Shown: piece after piece, positions 21,995 through 35,404 of the stretch
How the letters are laid out: each line of letters starts with the position of its first letter
Numbering within the stretch: position 1 is the first letter of the stretch
Notes under the pieces: generated by a model
The model's database searches: none
What the model saw: the letters and a program-made list of their open reading frames with translations, nothing else
What the model was told of the DNA's origin: nothing
From: a virus
DNA: 64,000 nucleotides
IMG/VR virus record: IMGVR_UViG_3300027902_000001
Span: 1 to 64,000 of that record
Reading direction: 5' to 3' (one strand)
Translations under genes and position numbers: made by a program

Positions 21995-22360
21995 GATAAT
22001 GCTACGATGCCGGCCTGACGGCTCTGATGCCGCACTCGCAGATGTTGGTCATCTGCCGGGTAACGCCCTCGCGCGCGCTGGCGCTGTCCCAGGCCGGGAC
22101 GTGCTCCCCGTGTCTGCGCTTCAAATCGCCTATCAGCGTGTAACGTCCGCTGTTGCCGGACGCCCAGGTGGGCGTCTAGGTGGGTCTAAGCCGACTCGGA
22201 CGGCTTAACTCTGCGCAGGCGACCCTACGCCGTGCTTGTCCGTATACACCACGACCCATGTTGCGCGGCGAGCTTAGTGCGTCCCGCGACCGCTGTTGTG
22301 ATCTAACTTGCCCCCCACAGAGCATGGTACGGTCTTGGTATGTAGCACTCGTCGCGCAAG
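21995..22360 (-). ncRNA. Candidate large structured non-coding RNA 3' of tRNA-Glu
   Basis: At least 8 helices including nested multiloops; no convincing ORF. Confidence 0.5.
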
Positions 22361-22432
22361 CAGCAGATGCGGGACTCGAACCCGCGTCGTAGCCTTGAAA
22401 GGGCCACATCCTAACCGCTAGAAGAATCTGCC
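22361..22432 (-). tRNA. tRNA-Glu (anticodon TTC), CCA not encoded
   Basis: GGCAGAT/ATCTGCT acceptor stem, D loop TAGCGGTTAGGA, TGGCC-CTTTCAA-GGCTA anticodon arm, GCGGG-TTCGAGT-CCCGC T arm. Confidence 0.92.
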
Positions 22433-30358: not shown

Positions 30359-30703
30359 CTACAGCAGGTGCGCGCCCAACCGCGCCGCCACGTCGCCCCA
30401 ACAGCCGACGCGGTATGTTTCGGTCAGGTAGTCGTACAGCAGGGTCGTGTCATACGTGTTGCCCTGGTTGACGTAGCTCAGCCTGGGATGGCCTCCCAGG
30501 CGCTTATCCCACACGTACTCGACGCCGTGGCCGTCAATGTCATCGTTGCAGGCTTGCAGGATGCGGTCGCTGCGCGACCAGCCATCAGTCAGGCTGGTAA
30601 CTGGAATCGGCCCGCCGTGGATGTAGTCGCGCAGGCGGGCGGAGGCTTCCCAGGTCATGCCCCGGATGAGCATGAGCCGCTTGGATGATGGTGCTCTAGG
30701 CAT
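30359..30703 (-). CDS. Hypothetical phage protein
   Basis: GHGVE..YVNQGNTYDTT..WGD motif. Confidence 0.6.
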   Translation of the reverse strand: MPRAPSSKRLMLIRGMTWEASARLRDYIHGGPIPVTSLTDGWSRSDRILQACNDDIDGHGVEYVWDKRLGGHPRLSYVNQGNTYDTTLLYDYLTETYRVGCWGDVAARLGAHLL

Positions 30704-30890
30704 GGTTGACGCTCCCGGCCGCGGCGCGACGATCCAGTTCGTCGTCGATGTGGACGGTCTCGGCTTCGTCCTTCAGGATCGCAATTATCTCGGCGGCAGG
30801 CAAGCCTGATGCGTCGATGGCGGCGTGCAAGGCGCGCCGGAAGTTGATCCGTTGCGCGCGCTCCAATGGTGCGGCTTCGATATGATCCAT
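30696..30890 (-). CDS. Hypothetical protein
   Basis: AAGGAGG RBS directly after the hammerhead. Confidence 0.55.
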   Translation of the reverse strand: MDHIEAAPLERAQRINFRRALHAAIDASGLPAAEIIAILKDEAETVHIDDELDRRAAAGSVNHA

Positions 30891-30901
30891 GTGTTTCCTC
30901 C

Positions 30902-30973
30902 TTGACCTGGCTCGTTCAGCGCCGGGCAGTCATCCCCGGTCAGAGCCGCGGCCTCCCGACCGCAGCTTTCGCC
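30902..30973 (-). ncRNA. Type II hammerhead ribozyme (copy B)
   Basis: GGC-GAAA-GCTGCGGTC(GGGA)GGCCGCGGC-TC^TG-A-CCGGG(GATGACTG)CCCGG-CG-CTGAACGA-GCC-AGGTCAA. Confidence 0.8.
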
Positions 30974-30976
30974 TGT

Positions 30977-31195
30977 TCAATCCCCATCATCCTCTTGCTT
31001 GTCACGACCATAGCGATTGCGCAGTACGTAACCGTGGCGGCGTGCATAGGTACGCCAGAAGGCCCGGCTTTGCGCGCCCAGGTCGCCGTGGTAAAACCAT
31101 GACGCGCCCCCATCGGTGGATTGGCTGGCGCAGAAACCATCGCCAAATGGGTCGCCGTTGGGGTAGATTTCAAGGATGTCGGCAGGATTACGCAT
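30977..31195 (-). CDS. Hypothetical protein
   Basis: AAGGAGG RBS. Confidence 0.5.
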   Translation of the reverse strand: MRNPADILEIYPNGDPFGDGFCASQSTDGGASWFYHGDLGAQSRAFWRTYARRHGYVLRNRYGRDKQEDDGD

Positions 31196-31436
31196 GGTTG
31201 GCCTCCTTGGATTTATGCGTGGTCAGGTCGGCGCGACAGTAGCGGCACTCGTGGTAGATAGCGCAGCCGTCCTCCCAACTGACGCCGACCAGTATGGTGC
31301 CGGTCAACTTCTGAAACGGCATACCAGGTGGCACGCGGTCAGCCGGCACGGCCATCATGCCGTAGATCAAGCCCCGGCTCCGATCCTCGTGGTAGGACTC
31401 CCGGCAACCGTCATCGCAGAACTTACGCTGACTCAT
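31188..31436 (-). CDS. Small Cys-rich protein
   Basis: CDDGC and CRYC motifs; GGAGG RBS. Confidence 0.5.
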   Translation of the reverse strand: MSQRKFCDDGCRESYHEDRSRGLIYGMMAVPADRVPPGMPFQKLTGTILVGVSWEDGCAIYHECRYCRADLTTHKSKEANHA

Positions 31437-31438
31437 GG

Positions 31439-31636
31439 TTAGCCTCCGTAGTGCCAGACTTGGGTGCCGACCGGCAGGCGCTTGCACTTGGGTCCGCCAT
31501 GCCAGTCACGCAGGTATGACCGGAACTCCTGCTCGCCGATGGGTTCACGGAACTCGAATGCGCCCAGCGCGTAGGCGTCCAGCGAAAACTTGGCCGACCA
31601 ACGTGCGCTTTTACGGGACATGCTACGCTGGCTCAT
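31439..31636 (-). CDS. Hypothetical protein
   Basis: GGAGG RBS, coupled. Confidence 0.45.
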   Translation of the reverse strand: MSQRSMSRKSARWSAKFSLDAYALGAFEFREPIGEQEFRSYLRDWHGGPKCKRLPVGTQVWHYGG

Positions 31637-33092
31637 GGTTGGCCTCCCGCCACGCGCAGTACATCTTACGCGCCTTGATGTAGATGCTCGGATCGTCGGC
31701 GCAGTATTCCATGACGCCGACCGACAACTCACTGATCTGGTTGGCGTGTTTGCGCGTGCAGTCGCTCGCGCCCTCACTGGCGACGTGGGCCGCCTCATGG
31801 ATGACGACGGTGACGAAGCGTTCCCACGACCACTGGGAGATGTGGTCAGTATTCAGGATGATGCGGGTGGCGTCACCTGCGCCGTCGCACTCGTCCTTGA
31901 GCGCCCGACCCTCGATGGGCGTTTCGACCATGCCGCAACACGCCAGTAGGGTCTGCGCGGCGTGCAGCACCGGCTCCGGGATGGGTTTTTGGAGCGCCTG
32001 TTGCGCCTTGACCGTCACGATTTCGGAGACGTTAGGGATGGCGTCCGTCACCCACGCCGGCGGCGCGTAGTAGCCGGTCAGCACCTTACTGTTGGTCATC
32101 GCCGACGCGTCGGCAATCTGGGCCGCGTCGTCCGCACGCGTGGTGGCCCAGGACAGCTTCTTGAGACCCGCGGTCATCTTGAACTGCTTGACGCCGGCCG
32201 CGACAATGCGGGCCGGGGGCGCTTGCATGAACCGGAACTCCTCCGGTTGCGCGCCGTAGTTGGCGGCGTATTTGAGGACGGCGGCGATAGCGTCGGCGTC
32301 CGCGTAGCGGGCGAAGATTTCGCCGCATTCGGTGCGGACGTGCTCCCAGGAGAAGGCGGCCCGGTCGCGGCCGGGCGATTGGGACACGTTGTAGCTGAGC
32401 GCCAGGTTCCACTGCTCGCCGACCCGTTGGCCGCGACTGTACAACTGGCCGGCTTCGGTGATGATCAGCGGCGAGGACGCCTTGGGTGGCCGGTCGGCCA
32501 GGTTGACGCCGACTGCCGCCAGCTTGCACTGCAAGTGCGGATAGACGGCGTAGTTGAGGCCCGGATGGCGGGCGAAGGCTTCATAGGCGTTGGCCGCGTC
32601 CCGCGCTACGCCCGGCCCGGCATACGACCAGTAGGTGCCGCGGCGGGGCGTGGCAGTCTGGTACACGTCCAGCGTGAGCACCTGCTTGCCTCCGCCGTTA
32701 TAGTTGGCCAGCCGACCGGTCATGAGCCAGTCCTGGGACGCCAGCAGCTTGACGAAACCGCTGCGCGCGGCGACCAAACTGGAGATCATTTCGCCTTCGC
32801 CGTGCTCGCCGACCGTGGCGTCGTCGCCACGCTTGCCGGACTGGCCCAGCAAAAGGATGGTGTCCAGATCGACGCCGCGGCCGCTGTCGGCCAGGGTGAT
32901 GTGGTCGGCGTCGATCACGGTCAGGGCGGGCGCGCACTTGGCCGTCAGGCACTCGTCAAGTTGGTTCTGGACGGATTCCTTGACGGCCTTGGCCGCGTCC
33001 CAATCCGGCACGTAGTCGGCGCTGAGAATGGTCTGGATGGTTTGCGCGTAGGCGTAGGTACGCCCATCCAGGACGATGTTAGTCGGTGACAT
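31623..33092 (-). CDS. GHKL (Hsp90/MORC-like) ATPase fused to a C-terminal HExxH metallopeptidase-like domain
   Basis: KESVQNQLD (N box), DSGRG (G1), GEHGEG (G2), VIHEAAH. Confidence 0.7.
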   Translation of the reverse strand: MSPTNIVLDGRTYAYAQTIQTILSADYVPDWDAAKAVKESVQNQLDECLTAKCAPALTVIDADHITLADSGRGVDLDTILLLGQSGKRGDDATVGEHGEGEMISSLVAARSGFVKLLASQDWLMTGRLANYNGGGKQVLTLDVYQTATPRRGTYWSYAGPGVARDAANAYEAFARHPGLNYAVYPHLQCKLAAVGVNLADRPPKASSPLIITEAGQLYSRGQRVGEQWNLALSYNVSQSPGRDRAAFSWEHVRTECGEIFARYADADAIAAVLKYAANYGAQPEEFRFMQAPPARIVAAGVKQFKMTAGLKKLSWATTRADDAAQIADASAMTNSKVLTGYYAPPAWVTDAIPNVSEIVTVKAQQALQKPIPEPVLHAAQTLLACCGMVETPIEGRALKDECDGAGDATRIILNTDHISQWSWERFVTVVIHEAAHVASEGASDCTRKHANQISELSVGVMEYCADDPSIYIKARKMYCAWREANHEPA

Positions 33093-33399
33093 CGGACTCC
33101 TCCCCTGCTTTGATCTGTGCGGCGCGCACCGCGGCCATACGTGCGGTCATGCGCTTGACGCTGCGCAAGTTGTAACCGAGCGACTCCAGTTCCTCTTTCA
33201 GGTCGGCGTATTCGTTTGGCGCGGCCGGCCTGGTCCAGCCGGTGATGCCAACTGATGCCGCGCCATGCTGACCGACGTGCATGCAGGACAACATCCTGTA
33301 GTAACCATCTGCGATCTCCGGGAACAACGCAATGACATCTCCGTCGCCGTCCTTGAACTTGCGGAAGATGACGGTGGTCTGTGCAGTGTCTTGCTCCAT
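33079..33399 (-). CDS. Conserved phage protein
   Basis: VIFRKF..VIALFP..HVGQH..EY..L.EELESLGY motif. Confidence 0.7.
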   Translation of the reverse strand: MEQDTAQTTVIFRKFKDGDGDVIALFPEIADGYYRMLSCMHVGQHGAASVGITGWTRPAAPNEYADLKEELESLGYNLRSVKRMTARMAAVRAAQIKAGEESDVTD

Positions 33400-33424
33400 A
33401 ATAATCCTCCTGAGAGCGTATGTT

Positions 33425-33585
33425 GGATAGCACCTGACGCGCCATCTTGCTGCGCGTCCATGAGGGCCGGCGGGGGAACGATCCCCGCGTACAGTCTTGG
33501 CAGACCGCTGCACCAGCATCAGCCCATGCGCGCATGGTTGGTTCGGCCTGGTAAGCCGCCGACCATGCGCAGACACCCATTGACC
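33425..33585 (-). ncRNA. Candidate structured intergenic RNA
   Basis: Four to five GC-rich helices including a multiloop. Confidence 0.4.
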
Positions 33586-33640
33586 GTGATCCTCCTTGGT
33601 TAGTATGCTGCCGCGGCGCATTACCCCGCCAGTGACCCGC

Positions 33641-33949
33641 CTAGTTCGGTCGCGCCAGGTCCAGCGCGACGTGTTCGGCCTGGGCTGGCGTGATGCTGTC
33701 CAGGCCGGCGACGATGCGGTCGGTATGCTCGTCCTCGTGCCGGGTCGCGTGACGCTTGCGCGTGACGACCACTCTGCCGCAACACGTATGGGCCGTCCAG
33801 ACACACGGCATGGCGTAGATGCGGGCGTGTTCTTCGGCCAGTTGGATGGCATACGCCAACATGTCCGTCACGCCGTCGAAGGCGTCCGGGTCAATGTCAG
33901 CGCAGGTGCCGACCGTGAAAGTGTACTTGTCGGTGACGAGCTTAGTCAT
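33641..33949 (-). CDS. Hypothetical protein
   Basis: GGAGG RBS, coupled. Confidence 0.5.
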   Translation of the reverse strand: MTKLVTDKYTFTVGTCADIDPDAFDGVTDMLAYAIQLAEEHARIYAMPCVWTAHTCCGRVVVTRKRHATRHEDEHTDRIVAGLDSITPAQAEHVALDLARPN

Positions 33950-34211
33950 GGGATACCTCCATTGCGTCATCCAGCGCCGCCTGTTGCGTCGCGACATGCG
34001 CGTTGATTGCATCCTGCACGTGACCGGATTTGAGTGCCGCGAACGCGCGCAGACACTTCAGGTGGTCGTGGCACTCGGCGACTATCCTGGCAATGGCTAT
34101 CCCAAAGGTTAGCGGGTTGCGCGGAGTTCGGGCTGTGCGCTGACTTTCGATGCGTAGCGCACGGAGAATTTCGATCTTCTGGTTGTACTGCTCATTGGTC
34201 ATACTTGGCAT
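33942..34211 (-). CDS. Hypothetical protein
   Basis: AGGAGG RBS directly after the hammerhead. Confidence 0.55.
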   Translation of the reverse strand: MPSMTNEQYNQKIEILRALRIESQRTARTPRNPLTFGIAIARIVAECHDHLKCLRAFAALKSGHVQDAINAHVATQQAALDDAMEVSHD

Positions 34212-34225
34212 GGGATACCTCCTGC

Positions 34226-34297
34226 TTGACCTGCCTCATTCAGCGCCGGACAGTCATCTCCGGGCAGACCGGACGCGCCTGGCGTCCGGTTTCGGCA
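34226..34297 (-). ncRNA. Type II hammerhead ribozyme (copy A)
   Basis: TGCC-GAAA-CCGGACGC(CAGGC)GCGTCCGG-TC^TG-C-CCGGA(GATGACTG)TCCGG-CG-CTGAATGA-GGCA-GGTCAA. Confidence 0.82.
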
Positions 34298-34299
34298 CG

Positions 34300-34416
34300 T
34301 TACTGCGCGCCGGCCAGCGCGTCGCGCAGCGCGCTGAGCCACGACCGCCACGGCCAGCGGACGCCGATGCCGTGACGGGAGACGAGAATACCTGAACGGG
34401 AAAAGGTGATGGTCAT
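34300..34416 (-). CDS. Small protein (38 aa)
   Basis: AGGAGG RBS; start MTITFSR. Confidence 0.45.
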   Translation of the reverse strand: MTITFSRSGILVSRHGIGVRWPWRSWLSALRDALAGAQ

Positions 34417-34426
34417 GGGATACCTC

Positions 34427-34756
34427 CTAGTATTCGCAGACCAGATAGACGTAGCGCCAGTTACGACCGGCCGCGGTTGGCGGTTGTATGTGGCATGGCC
34501 AGCGACCACGGCGCAGCAACTTCTTGACAGTCGCCGGCGGGATGGCGTGACGGAAGTCTTGCTCCGTCCACACCAGTTCCCACACCGGCTGCCCCAACCA
34601 GGCCAGTTGGGCGTAGTAGTTACCACCCGCATAGTCGCCATCTTGCCAGCAGTCCTGCGCCATGCTCTGCATAACGGACGGCGAAAGCAGGTGCTCGCAT
34701 TCGGTTACGATATGCTCGCTGGTCGTTCCCTGATGGATCGTGTAACGCTTGAGCAT
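34427..34756 (-). CDS. Hypothetical protein
   Basis: ORF in the early array. Confidence 0.5.
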   Translation of the reverse strand: MLKRYTIHQGTTSEHIVTECEHLLSPSVMQSMAQDCWQDGDYAGGNYYAQLAWLGQPVWELVWTEQDFRHAIPPATVKKLLRRGRWPCHIQPPTAAGRNWRYVYLVCEY

Positions 34757-35084: not shown

Positions 35085-35297
35085 TTAGTTGTACACGTAC
35101 TCGACCGGCGTCAGCAGCAGCCAATACTTCTGGTTGCGCAACTGCGCCAGCGCCGCCTTGGTCGCCTTGGCGCGGGGGTTCTGACCCCGCACCGTCACGG
35201 ACGCGCTGAACATGCGTTCCTTGCCGGTTACGGCGTCAATGCCGAGCACTTGCGCCCGGCAGGTGCAAACCACCTTGGAACTGTTGGCCTTAGACAT
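35085..35297 (-). CDS. Hypothetical protein
   Basis: GGAGG RBS; start MSKANS. Confidence 0.5.
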   Translation of the reverse strand: MSKANSSKVVCTCRAQVLGIDAVTGKERMFSASVTVRGQNPRAKATKAALAQLRNQKYWLLLTPVEYVYN

Positions 35298-35404
35298 GGG
35301 ATACCTCCGTTCCTGAGCGTGTATGGATGAACGCAACTCTTGGCTCACAGCCAAGCCTCTGACCGCGCCCGCGCGTGGCCAGAAGTCTGACCGGGAACGT
35401 ATGG

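What the first reader, a model, noticed from the sequence alone, without database searches (positions are those of the whole stretch)
34226..34297. Type II hammerhead ribozyme A wedged between stop codon and Shine-Dalgarno
Seen: stem II UGCC/GGCA, GAAA, 9-bp stem III, canonical GUC triplet (predicted cut between 34267 and 34266), stem I with the same loop GAUGACUG, core CUGA-AU-GA, and tail GGUCAA then GCAGGAGG-N6-AUG. It begins 2 nt after the TAA at 34300. The core insertion, U-G first pair and bulge shared with copy B define a variant subfamily.
Basis: partly seen in the sequence, partly recalled or inferred. Interest (0 to 1): 0.85.

Follow-up and report, generated by a model that had tools for sequence, protein, structure and literature searches.

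The report
Variant hammerhead ribozymes between phage genes
This is a genuine type II hammerhead self-cleaving RNA, one of two in a phage early operon; the kind is well known, but both copies belong to a little-described subfamily with one extra nucleotide in the catalytic core.

Summary
On the minus strand, 34297-34225 has every element of a type II hammerhead: stem II, GAAA, a 9-bp stem III, GUC with predicted cleavage between 34267 and 34266, stem I, a 5-bp loop I/3'-tail pseudoknot, and CUGA-A-U-GA. That core carries one extra A after A6.

Rfam's Hammerhead_II model scores it 32.0 bits, below its 37-bit cut-off. A model I built from 113 canonical-core phage hammerheads scores it 51.6 bits, E 3.9e-13. 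It scores copy B (30973-30901) at 40.7 bits and finds nothing else comparable in the window.

The window is part of a complete 73.5-kb phage genome. Sitting tightly between a stop codon and a Shine-Dalgarno site is typical of the whole family.

The "variant subfamily" is real. I found 40 unique extra-A members, of which 39 have G at position 2.1 and 38 have a stem I bulge. Among 113 canonical members the counts are 3 and 18. Only 3 of 20 variants tested reach Rfam's cut-off.

The insertion itself was reported in 2011 as a low-activity natural variant (PMC3088659). Cleavage of these copies is untested.

The parts
34225..34297 (-). Hammerhead copy A, whole motif (type II topology: stem II open, stems I and III closed by loops)
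   Evidence: Sequence read. RF02276 scores 32.0 bits. Custom model R1 scores 51.6 bits, E 3.9e-13. The minimum-free-energy fold is the three-way junction.
34294..34297 (-). Stem II 3' strand UGCC; pairs with GGCA at 34235-34232
   Evidence: The stem II columns covary in the alignment of relatives.
34268..34293 (-). GAAA (34293-34290) and the stem III hairpin (A34290 to U34268, 9 bp)
34266..34267 (-). Predicted scissile bond, 3' of C17 (34267) and 5' of U1.1 (34266)
   Evidence: Position follows from the hammerhead NUH rule applied to the sequence. Not tested experimentally.
34244..34266 (-). Stem I hairpin: U1.1.G2.1, G-C, a 1-nt bulge (C), then 5 bp; loop GAUGACUG (34258-34251)
34236..34243 (-). 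Core strand C3 U4 G5 A6 +A(34239) U7 G8 A9, with one extra A after A6
   Evidence: Both the Rfam model and R1 align A34239 as an insertion.
34226..34235 (-). Stem II 5' strand GGCA (34235-34232) and 3' tail GGUCAA. GGUCA (34231-34227) pairs with loop I UGACU (34256-34252) as a 5-bp pseudoknot.
   Evidence: All 5 pseudoknot pairs covary among relatives.
34300..34416 (-). Upstream ORF ending in TAA (34302-34300). It is most likely the 38-codon ORF starting at ATG 34416, which has its own AGGAGGUAUCCC leader. The 113-codon reading from 34641 uses the same frame and stop.
   Evidence: ORF list. Codon-position GC content and the upstream sequence. Repeated leader.
33942..34225 (-). Shine-Dalgarno GCAGGAGG (34225-18), 6-nt spacer, AUG 34211 and the 89-codon downstream ORF (to 33942)
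   Evidence: No family in Pfam, PHROGs or NCBIfam.
30901..30973 (-). Hammerhead copy B. Stem II GGC/GCC; GAAA 30970-30967; stem III to U30944; C17 at 30943, so the predicted cut is 30943|30942; stem I 30942-30920 with a bulged A; core CUGA-A-C-GA 30919-30912; tail GGUCAA 30907-30902. Upstream stop TGA at 30979-30977; SD AAGGAGG; AUG 30890.
   Evidence: RF02276 scores 20.1 bits. R1 scores 40.7 bits, E 7e-10.

Best explanation
Copy A is a self-cleaving type II hammerhead ribozyme in an intergenic gap of a leftward-transcribed early operon. The host genome is a complete 73.5-kb tailed phage.

Proposed mechanism:
- During or just after transcription the RNA folds into the three-way junction.
- The loop I/3'-tail pseudoknot holds stems I and II in parallel.
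- The core cuts 3' of C17 (34267).
- After the cut only the 4-bp stem II holds the two halves together, so they separate.

Products:
- The upstream message ends in the 9-bp G+C-rich stem III hairpin with a 2',3'-cyclic phosphate.
- The downstream message begins with a 5'-OH directly at the base of the stem I hairpin. Its Shine-Dalgarno site starts right after the pseudoknot tail.

Together with copy B, 3.3 kb downstream, it would excise a block of small early genes from the polycistronic transcript as a separate mRNA with structured ends.

What is shown: the motif, its family membership, the covariation, and the tight stop/ribozyme/SD packing. That packing is a family-wide habit.

What is inferred: cleavage itself, its rate given the extra core A, the stabilising effect of the hairpin ends, and any effect on translation.
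For: 1. All conserved core positions, an NUH triplet, the G10.1-C11.1 pair, type II topology and a 5-bp pseudoknot are present in both copies.

2. Model R1 was built from 113 canonical-core viral hammerheads, none from this genome. It scores A at 51.6 bits (E 3.9e-13) and B at 40.7 bits (E 7e-10). The next hit in 64 kb scores 12.3 bits.

3. A and B are 38 of 43 identical from C17 onward. Stem III and pair 10.2-11.2 of stem II are rewritten with pairing kept, and the closing pair of stem I is A-U in A and G-C in B.

4. I aligned 54 matches from the variant-bearing loci, 44 of them distinct rows.
- 98.1% of cells pair.
- 16 of 18 pairs show changes on both sides.
- 0 of 500 shuffles reach the observed values.
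- All 5 pseudoknot pairs covary, and the pseudoknot was not part of the model.

5. Loop and tail match their own partner better than permuted partners. The mean is 5.1 bp against 4.02, and the best of 200 permutations gave 4.45.

6. The context is a phage: terminase, portal and methyltransferase hits, direct terminal repeats, CheckV completeness 100.

7. The published picture is the same. Type II hammerheads with this pseudoknot flank genes or short gene blocks in prophages and cleave in vitro and in E. coli (PMC3088659, passages read). Three type II hammerheads near phage-like genes of Desulfovibrio vulgaris cleave in vivo (PMC8782182, abstract and passages).

8. Family habit.
- An upstream ORF stop within 40 nt of the ribozyme start was found for 36 of 40 variant and 100 of 113 canonical members. 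Most lie at -1 to +6 nt.
- An SD plus start codon follows in 37 of 40 and 89 of 113, with the start a median 22-24 nt after stem II.
Against: - Rfam's own cut-off is not reached: 32.0 and 20.1 bits against 37. Sub-threshold RF02276 matches at E<=10 also occur in 11 of 14 control genomes, so that hit alone is weak.
- Folding energies are only modestly better than shuffles: z is -2.07 for A and -1.37 for B.
- The one natural ribozyme with an insertion after A6 tested in PMC3088659 had low activity. The authors expected that insertion to disturb the core.
- The stem I sequence of my comparison sets was fixed by the search pattern. Stem I therefore adds no independent support, and R1's score is partly by construction.
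- There is no direct cleavage data for this phage.
- Promoter and terminator scans of 28-40 kb are at chance level, so the transcription unit is inferred from gene orientation only.
Confidence: 0.75

Rival explanations
1. Crippled or very slow hammerhead. The fold is kept, but the extra A after A6 makes cleavage too slow to matter. The element would then act mainly as a structured intergenic spacer, for example as a barrier to exonucleases or as an RNase target.
For: PMC3088659 reports low activity for a natural insertion after A6 and gives a structural reason. Some neighbouring copies in related contigs carry other core defects, such as CCGAUGA in L218:5903-5968.
Against: The insertion persists in 40 unique sequences with diverse stems II and III and diverse pseudoknots. 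All catalytic nucleotides stay intact and the helices covary. It also occurs on at least 9 further, unrelated stem I backgrounds. It is non-randomly tied to G2.1: 39 of 40 against 3 of 113. Decay would not produce that pattern.
Confidence: 0.15
2. The element is primarily a translational control device. The pseudoknot tail abuts the Shine-Dalgarno site and the ribozyme starts 2 nt after a stop codon. Ribosomes terminating upstream or initiating downstream would compete with folding. On this reading, cleavage or folding sets how much of the downstream gene is translated, rather than merely separating messages.
For: Among the members with a detected SD, it begins 5-11 nt after stem II in 23 of 37 variant members. 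That is at or just past the pseudoknot. In copy B the tail GGUCAA runs straight into AAGGAGG.
Against: There is no evidence for sequestration of the SD itself. In the predicted folds the SD of copy B is unpaired and that of copy A is paired only in a weak local hairpin. Tight packing is also expected simply from phage genome compaction.
Confidence: 0.07
3. Chance resemblance, or another element such as an intrinsic terminator.
For: Sub-threshold Rfam score. 1 of 60 shuffled genomes also gave 2 hits to my lax descriptor.
Against: Custom model E is 3.9e-13. There is a second copy with compensatory changes. No U tract follows stem III. No terminator-like site was reported at either ribozyme.
Confidence: 0.02

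Closest known systems
Type II hammerhead ribozymes of bacteria and prophages (Rfam RF02276; Perreault et al. 2011, PMC3088659)
   Same: Same topology, core, G10.1-C11.1 pair and loop I/3'-tail pseudoknot. Even a similar stem I: the Rfam consensus reads ugCCggG...CccGGca. Same habit of several copies flanking genes or short gene blocks in phage DNA.
   Different: One extra A between A6 and N7. G rather than A at position 2.1. A 1-nt bulge after pair 1.2-2.2. The score is below Rfam's gathering threshold.
The natural "A6a" core-insertion variant tested in Perreault et al. 2011 (Figure 5 and section "Core nucleotide variation", read)
   Same: An insertion directly after A6 in a natural hammerhead.
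   Different: The paper treats it as a rare variation with low activity. Which ribozyme carried it, and whether that one had G2.1 or a bulge, is in Figure S6 and Dataset S1, which I could not open. Here it appears as a recurrent subfamily with linked changes in stem I.
Three type II hammerheads of Desulfovibrio vulgaris shown to cleave in vivo by cyPhyRNA-seq (PMC8782182)
   Same: Type II topology, near hypothetical and phage-like genes.
   Different: Those were predicted by standard models. I did not see their sequences, so whether any carries the insertion is unknown.
Engineered hammerhead switches that gate a Shine-Dalgarno site in bacteria (recalled from memory; no call)
   Same: A hammerhead placed directly upstream of a ribosome binding site.
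   Different: In those designs the SD is deliberately paired into a ribozyme stem. Here the SD only abuts the pseudoknot tail.

Membership tests
Hammerhead ribozyme, type II (RF02276) | Conserved core: C3 U4 G5 A6 N7 G8 A9 on one strand, G12 A13 A14 on the other, and the A15.1-U16.1 pair | tested here: inconclusive
   Every conserved nucleotide is present in A and B, but there are two nucleotides (A+U, A+C) where the family has one (N7). Both covariance models align the A as an insertion.
Hammerhead ribozyme, type II (RF02276) | Cleavage triplet N-U-H (position 17 is not G) | tested here: met
   GUC in A (34269-34267) and CUC in B (30945-30943).
Hammerhead ribozyme, type II (RF02276) | Three helices around the core, stems I and III hairpin-closed, stem II open, G10.1-C11.1 as first pair of stem II | tested here: met
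   Structural parse. The minimum-free-energy fold of A, and of B in its longer context, is this junction.
Hammerhead ribozyme, type II (RF02276) | Pseudoknot of 4 or more pairs between loop I and the nucleotides just 3' of stem II (described for the majority of type II members in PMC3088659) | tested here: met
   UGACU pairs with GGUCA, 5 pairs, in both copies. Among relatives 5 of 5 pseudoknot pairs covary.
Hammerhead ribozyme, type II (RF02276) | Score at or above Rfam's gathering threshold (37 bits) | tested here: not met
   32.0 bits for A and 20.1 bits for B. This is typical of the extra-A subfamily: 3 of 20 pass, against 16 of 19 canonical relatives.
Hammerhead ribozyme, type II (RF02276) | Helices supported by compensatory changes among relatives | tested here: met
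   Stems II and III and the pseudoknot covary. Stem I could not be tested because the search pattern fixed it.
Hammerhead ribozyme, type II (RF02276) | Site-specific self-cleavage giving 2',3'-cyclic phosphate and 5'-OH ends | not testable with these tools
   No RNA run holds this stretch. No biochemical data.
Extra-A ("A6a") subfamily of phage type II hammerheads (defined here) | CUGA-A-N-GA core together with G at 2.1; in the CCGG stem I lineage also a 1-nt bulge after pair 1.2-2.2 | tested here: met
   Both window copies have all three features. Among 40 unique members, 39 have G2.1 and 38 have the bulge.

The most novel reading that the evidence does not exclude
The extra A after A6, the G at position 2.1 and (in one lineage) the stem I bulge form a co-adapted alternative core architecture rather than a defect. 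On this reading G2.1, and the altered stem I geometry, offset the insertion. The variant would then be a fully competent hammerhead, or a deliberately retuned one that is slower or more dependent on Mg2+ or temperature. Phages would use it to time the separation of early messages. It would be a functional hammerhead sub-class that standard models systematically miss.
Probability: 0.3. Interest if true: 0.6.

Novelty: new variant of a known kind. Interest (0 to 1): 0.42.

Why it matters
The hammerhead core is one of the most conserved RNA active sites, and insertions in it are usually read as damage. Here an insertion recurs in dozens of otherwise intact, covarying phage ribozymes. It is tied to a specific neighbouring nucleotide. 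That gives a concrete, cheap test of whether the core tolerates a compensated alternative geometry.

There is also a practical point. Rfam's threshold misses most of these variants (17 of 20 tested), so ribozyme counts in phage genomes are underestimates.

The biological role of prokaryotic hammerheads was called an open question in a 2017 review (PMC6155905, passage read). The family-wide stop-codon/ribozyme/SD packing measured here supports a role in cutting polycistronic phage messages into units with hairpin-protected ends.

Tried and rejected
- **Exact loop/tail pattern.** GATGACTG...CTGAANGA...GGTCAA in viral contigs gave 0 hits.

- **Close relatives of the phage.** None found by DNA against the phage collection. 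The best terminase match was 39% identical. Two proteins searched in viral contigs found nothing. Syntenic comparison was therefore impossible.

- **My genome contigs pattern was badly chosen.**
  - CCGGCGCTGAANGAG also encodes Pro-Ala-Leu-Asn/Lys-Glu.
  - Nearly all of the 90 stretches look like coding-sequence chance hits.
  - Model R1 matched only 2 of 90 loci at E<=0.01: L059 at 31 bits, which is an extra-A hammerhead with C1.1-G2.1 and a bulge, and L009 at 22 bits.

- **Identifying the published A6a ribozyme.** I fetched phage PaP3, one of four sources named in the legend of Figure S6. Neither R1 nor Rfam at E<=1 found any hammerhead in it. This was a dead end.

- **RNA evidence.** No RNA holder was listed for 30700-34700. 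Four DNA runs hold small shares. I did not lay reads.

- **Promoter and terminator scan of 28-40 kb.** Counts are at the level of shuffles.

- **Flanking ORFs.** No Pfam, PHROG-with-function or NCBIfam family for those immediately flanking the ribozymes. The flanking proteins of A and B are not paralogues; local alignment scores are 15-30.

- **A bias, corrected.**
  - The canonical set of my first "less biased" comparison was contaminated with loci from the stem-I-fixed scan.
  - I recomputed it using only the loci returned. The corrected numbers are the ones I report.

- **Literature searches.**
  - "hammerhead" + "A6a" gave 3 papers, of which only PMC3088659 is relevant.
  - "type II hammerhead / bacteriophage / self-cleaving" from 2012 on.
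  - [quoted passage not shown].
  - None of the listed titles or abstracts describes an extra-A subfamily linked to G2.1.
  - PMC3088659 holds no occurrence of "Shine-Dalgarno", "ribosome" or "translation".
  - This shows absence only in the library searched.

Full report
**What is at the coordinates**

On the minus strand the upstream reading frame stops at TAA (34302-34300). Two nucleotides later the motif begins:
- UGCC (34297-34294), the 3' strand of stem II.
- GAAA (34293-34290).
- A 9-bp stem III (A34290 to U34268).
- C17 at 34267.
- Stem I (U34266 to G34244), with a U.G first pair, one bulged nucleotide and the loop GAUGACUG.
- The core strand CUGA-A-U-GA (34243-34236).
- GGCA (34235-34232), which closes stem II.
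- The tail GGUCAA (34231-34226).

GCAGGAGG, a 6-nt spacer and AUG (34211) follow. Loop bases UGACU can pair with tail bases GGUCA. Every statement in the finding about sequence and position is correct, including the predicted cut between 34267 and 34266.

Copy B lies at 30973-30901. It has the same loop, the same tail and CUGA-A-C-GA. It sits 3 nt after a TGA stop, with AAGGAGG directly after the tail.

**Is it more than chance?**

Rfam at its curated thresholds reports only a tRNA in the window.
- With permissive thresholds, Hammerhead_II (RF02276) matches copy A end to end at 32.0 bits. The gathering score is 37. E is 7e-5 in 321 nt and 0.014 over the window.
- Copy B scores 20.1 bits.
- Such sub-threshold hits are not rare. 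The same search at E<=10 rings in 11 of 14 control genomes.

I therefore used two other tests.

The first was a deliberately lax structural descriptor.
- It requires GAAA, stem III of at least 4 bp, U-H, stem I of at least 2 bp, CUGA-N(1-2)-GA, and stem II of at least 2 bp starting with G-C.
- It finds exactly these two sites in the whole 73,495-bp genome.
- In 60 dinucleotide shuffles the mean was 0.067 hits, and 1 of 60 reached 2.

The second was a covariance model (R1) built from 113 unique canonical-core hammerheads from other viral contigs.
- It scores A at 51.6 bits (E 3.9e-13) and B at 40.7 bits (E 7e-10).
- The next match in the window is 12.3 bits.
- Part of that score is by construction. 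The training set was collected with a pattern taken from this stem I.

Folding energies are only modestly unusual (z -2.07 and -1.37), though the minimum-energy fold of A is the hammerhead junction.

**The two copies compared**

- From C17 to the end of the tail, A and B are identical at 38 of 43 positions.
- The five differences are the bulged base, both sides of the closing pair of stem I (A-U against G-C), N7, and position 10.2. The change at 10.2 is compensated on the other strand (G-C against C-G).
- Stem III is entirely rewritten with pairing preserved.
- The flanking proteins are unrelated.

**Context**

The window is the first 64 kb of a 73,495-bp virus record with direct terminal repeats and an estimated completeness of 100.
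- Large terminase, portal, head-tail adaptor and DNA methyltransferase matches lie on the plus strand from 39.4 kb.
- The ribozymes lie in a run of small minus-strand ORFs without known families.
- No close relative exists in the collections I could search.
- The two ribozymes bracket about 3.3 kb of genes.
- The upstream ORF of copy A is probably a 38-codon ORF (34416-34300). Its leader, AGGAGGUAUCCCAUG, is identical to the one after the ribozyme.
- That 15-mer occurs 4 times on this strand with at most 1 mismatch. The chance expectation for matches allowing up to 2 mismatches is 0.11.

**What is already known**

Perreault et al. 2011 (PMC3088659; abstract, section 8 and passages read) described:
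- natural type II hammerheads as common in bacteria;
- the loop I/3'-tail pseudoknot and its importance for speed;
- several hammerheads flanking single genes or short gene blocks in prophages, with cleavage in vitro and in E. coli;
- an insertion "after A6 (called A6a)" with low activity.

Three type II hammerheads of D. vulgaris cleave in vivo (PMC8782182). A 2017 review calls the biological role of prokaryotic hammerheads an open question (PMC6155905). The class, the context and the insertion as such are therefore in print.

**The variant subfamily**

I scanned for the window's stem I with either core.
- Allowing any two nucleotides in place of N7 added only one non-hammerhead hit.
- The extra-A pattern in metagenome contigs gave 62 contigs.
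- Of 202 pattern matches in all, 173 passed a structural filter and 153 were unique. That left 40 extra-A (2 window, 3 viral, 35 metagenome) and 113 canonical.

| Feature | Extra-A (n = 40) | Canonical (n = 113) |
|---|---|---|
| Second inserted-site base / N7 | U 33, C 6, A 1 | U 82, C 25, A 6 |
| G at position 2.1 | 39 | 3 |
| A at position 2.1 | 1 | 110 |
| Bulge after pair 1.2-2.2 | 38 | 18 |

The base distribution in the first row is the same in both sets. So the added base is the A, not the base that follows it. The Fisher p values are 1e-31 for G2.1 and 9e-20 for the bulge. They are not corrected for relatedness.

Additional copies in the same contigs show that the constant feature is G2.1 rather than the wobble. 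L246:434-501 has a different stem I with C1.1-G2.1, a bulge and the extra A.

I ran a second pair of scans that did not fix stem I.
- After filtering to the loci those scans returned, there were 13 unique extra-A and 97 unique canonical members.
- G2.1 occurs in 10 of 13 against 34 of 97 (p 0.006).
- A2.1 occurs in 0 of 13 against 45 of 97 (p 0.0007).
- A 5' bulge occurs in 6 of 13 against 10 of 97 (p 0.003).
- Nine of the 13 have stem I sequences unrelated to the window's.

Covariation among 54 matches in the variant-bearing loci (44 distinct rows) supports stems II and III and the pseudoknot.
- 98.1% of cells pair.
- 16 of 18 pairs show double changes.
- 0 of 500 shuffles reach the observed values.

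Rfam's threshold is reached by 3 of 20 variant members tested, against 16 of 19 canonical ones.

**"Wedged between stop codon and SD"**

This is true here, but it is a family habit rather than a peculiarity.
- An upstream ORF stop was found close to the ribozyme start in 36 of 40 variant and 100 of 113 canonical members, mostly at -1 to +6 nt.
- An SD plus start codon follows in 37 of 40 and 89 of 113, a median 22-24 nt after stem II.

**How it most likely works**

The fold and membership are shown. Cleavage is inferred from membership and from published activity of relatives.

Two consequences follow from general knowledge of bacterial mRNA decay (my own knowledge, no call):
- A 3' end closed by a stable hairpin resists 3' exonucleases.
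- A 5'-OH end that is base-paired from its first nucleotide is a poor substrate for 5'-end-dependent RNase E.

The type II arrangement would give both products such ends. After the cut only the 4-bp stem II links them.

The main uncertainty is rate, given the reported low activity of an A6a variant. Against simple damage stand three observations: the persistence of the insertion in many diversified sequences, its presence in both paralogues here, and its link to G2.1. Whether that link is structural compensation or shared descent cannot be settled with these data.

**Verdict**

This is a real type II hammerhead in a textbook phage setting. It belongs to a coherent core-insertion subfamily that is under-detected and, as far as my searches show, not described as such. 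I rate interest at 0.42: the class and context are known, but the linked core and stem I changes pose a sharp, testable question.

Noticed in passing
window 33947-33961, 34209-34223, 34414-34428, 35295-35309 (minus strand): The translation-initiation leader (A/T/C)GGAGGTATCCCATG recurs four times with at most 1 mismatch. The chance expectation, for matches allowing up to 2 mismatches, is 0.11. It suggests true starts at 33949, 34211, 34416 and 35297, and a 38-codon ORF just upstream of ribozyme A.
   Followed up: partly
window 22360-22432 (minus strand): The phage carries a tRNA-Glu gene (anticodon UUC): 53.9 bits in Rfam, also called by ARAGORN.
   Followed up: no
L271:30-96 and L271:634-699 (minus strand): In one metagenome contig, two hammerheads next to an extra-A copy carry a different core variation. 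They read CUGAAGA-U-GAC, which is an extra U between A9 and G10.1.
   Followed up: no
L218:5903-5968 and L257:2743-2808: A hammerhead-like copy beside an extra-A copy has CCGAUGA in place of CUGAUGA (U4 changed to C). It may be a decayed or unusual core.
   Followed up: no
L140:1259-1313 (minus strand): A twister-P5 ribozyme (61.9 bits, above its cut-off) lies about 230 nt from a type II hammerhead in the same viral contig.
   Followed up: no
L219:1658-1725: A sub-threshold match to the HDV-like ribozyme family of F. prausnitzii (32.9 bits against a 44-bit cut-off) lies about 1 kb from an extra-A hammerhead.
   Followed up: no
L117 (4.4 kb), L143, L335: Dense arrays of type II hammerheads. L117 has 7 Rfam matches above the cut-off in 4.4 kb. 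L143 has 6 matches, 1 of them above the cut-off. L335 has 6 pattern matches.
   Followed up: no
window 39453-40910 (+) and 41476-43386 (+): A DNA methyltransferase-like gene and the large terminase open the rightward late region. A strong sigma-70-like promoter match (11 of 12) lies at 39263-39290 (+).
   Followed up: no
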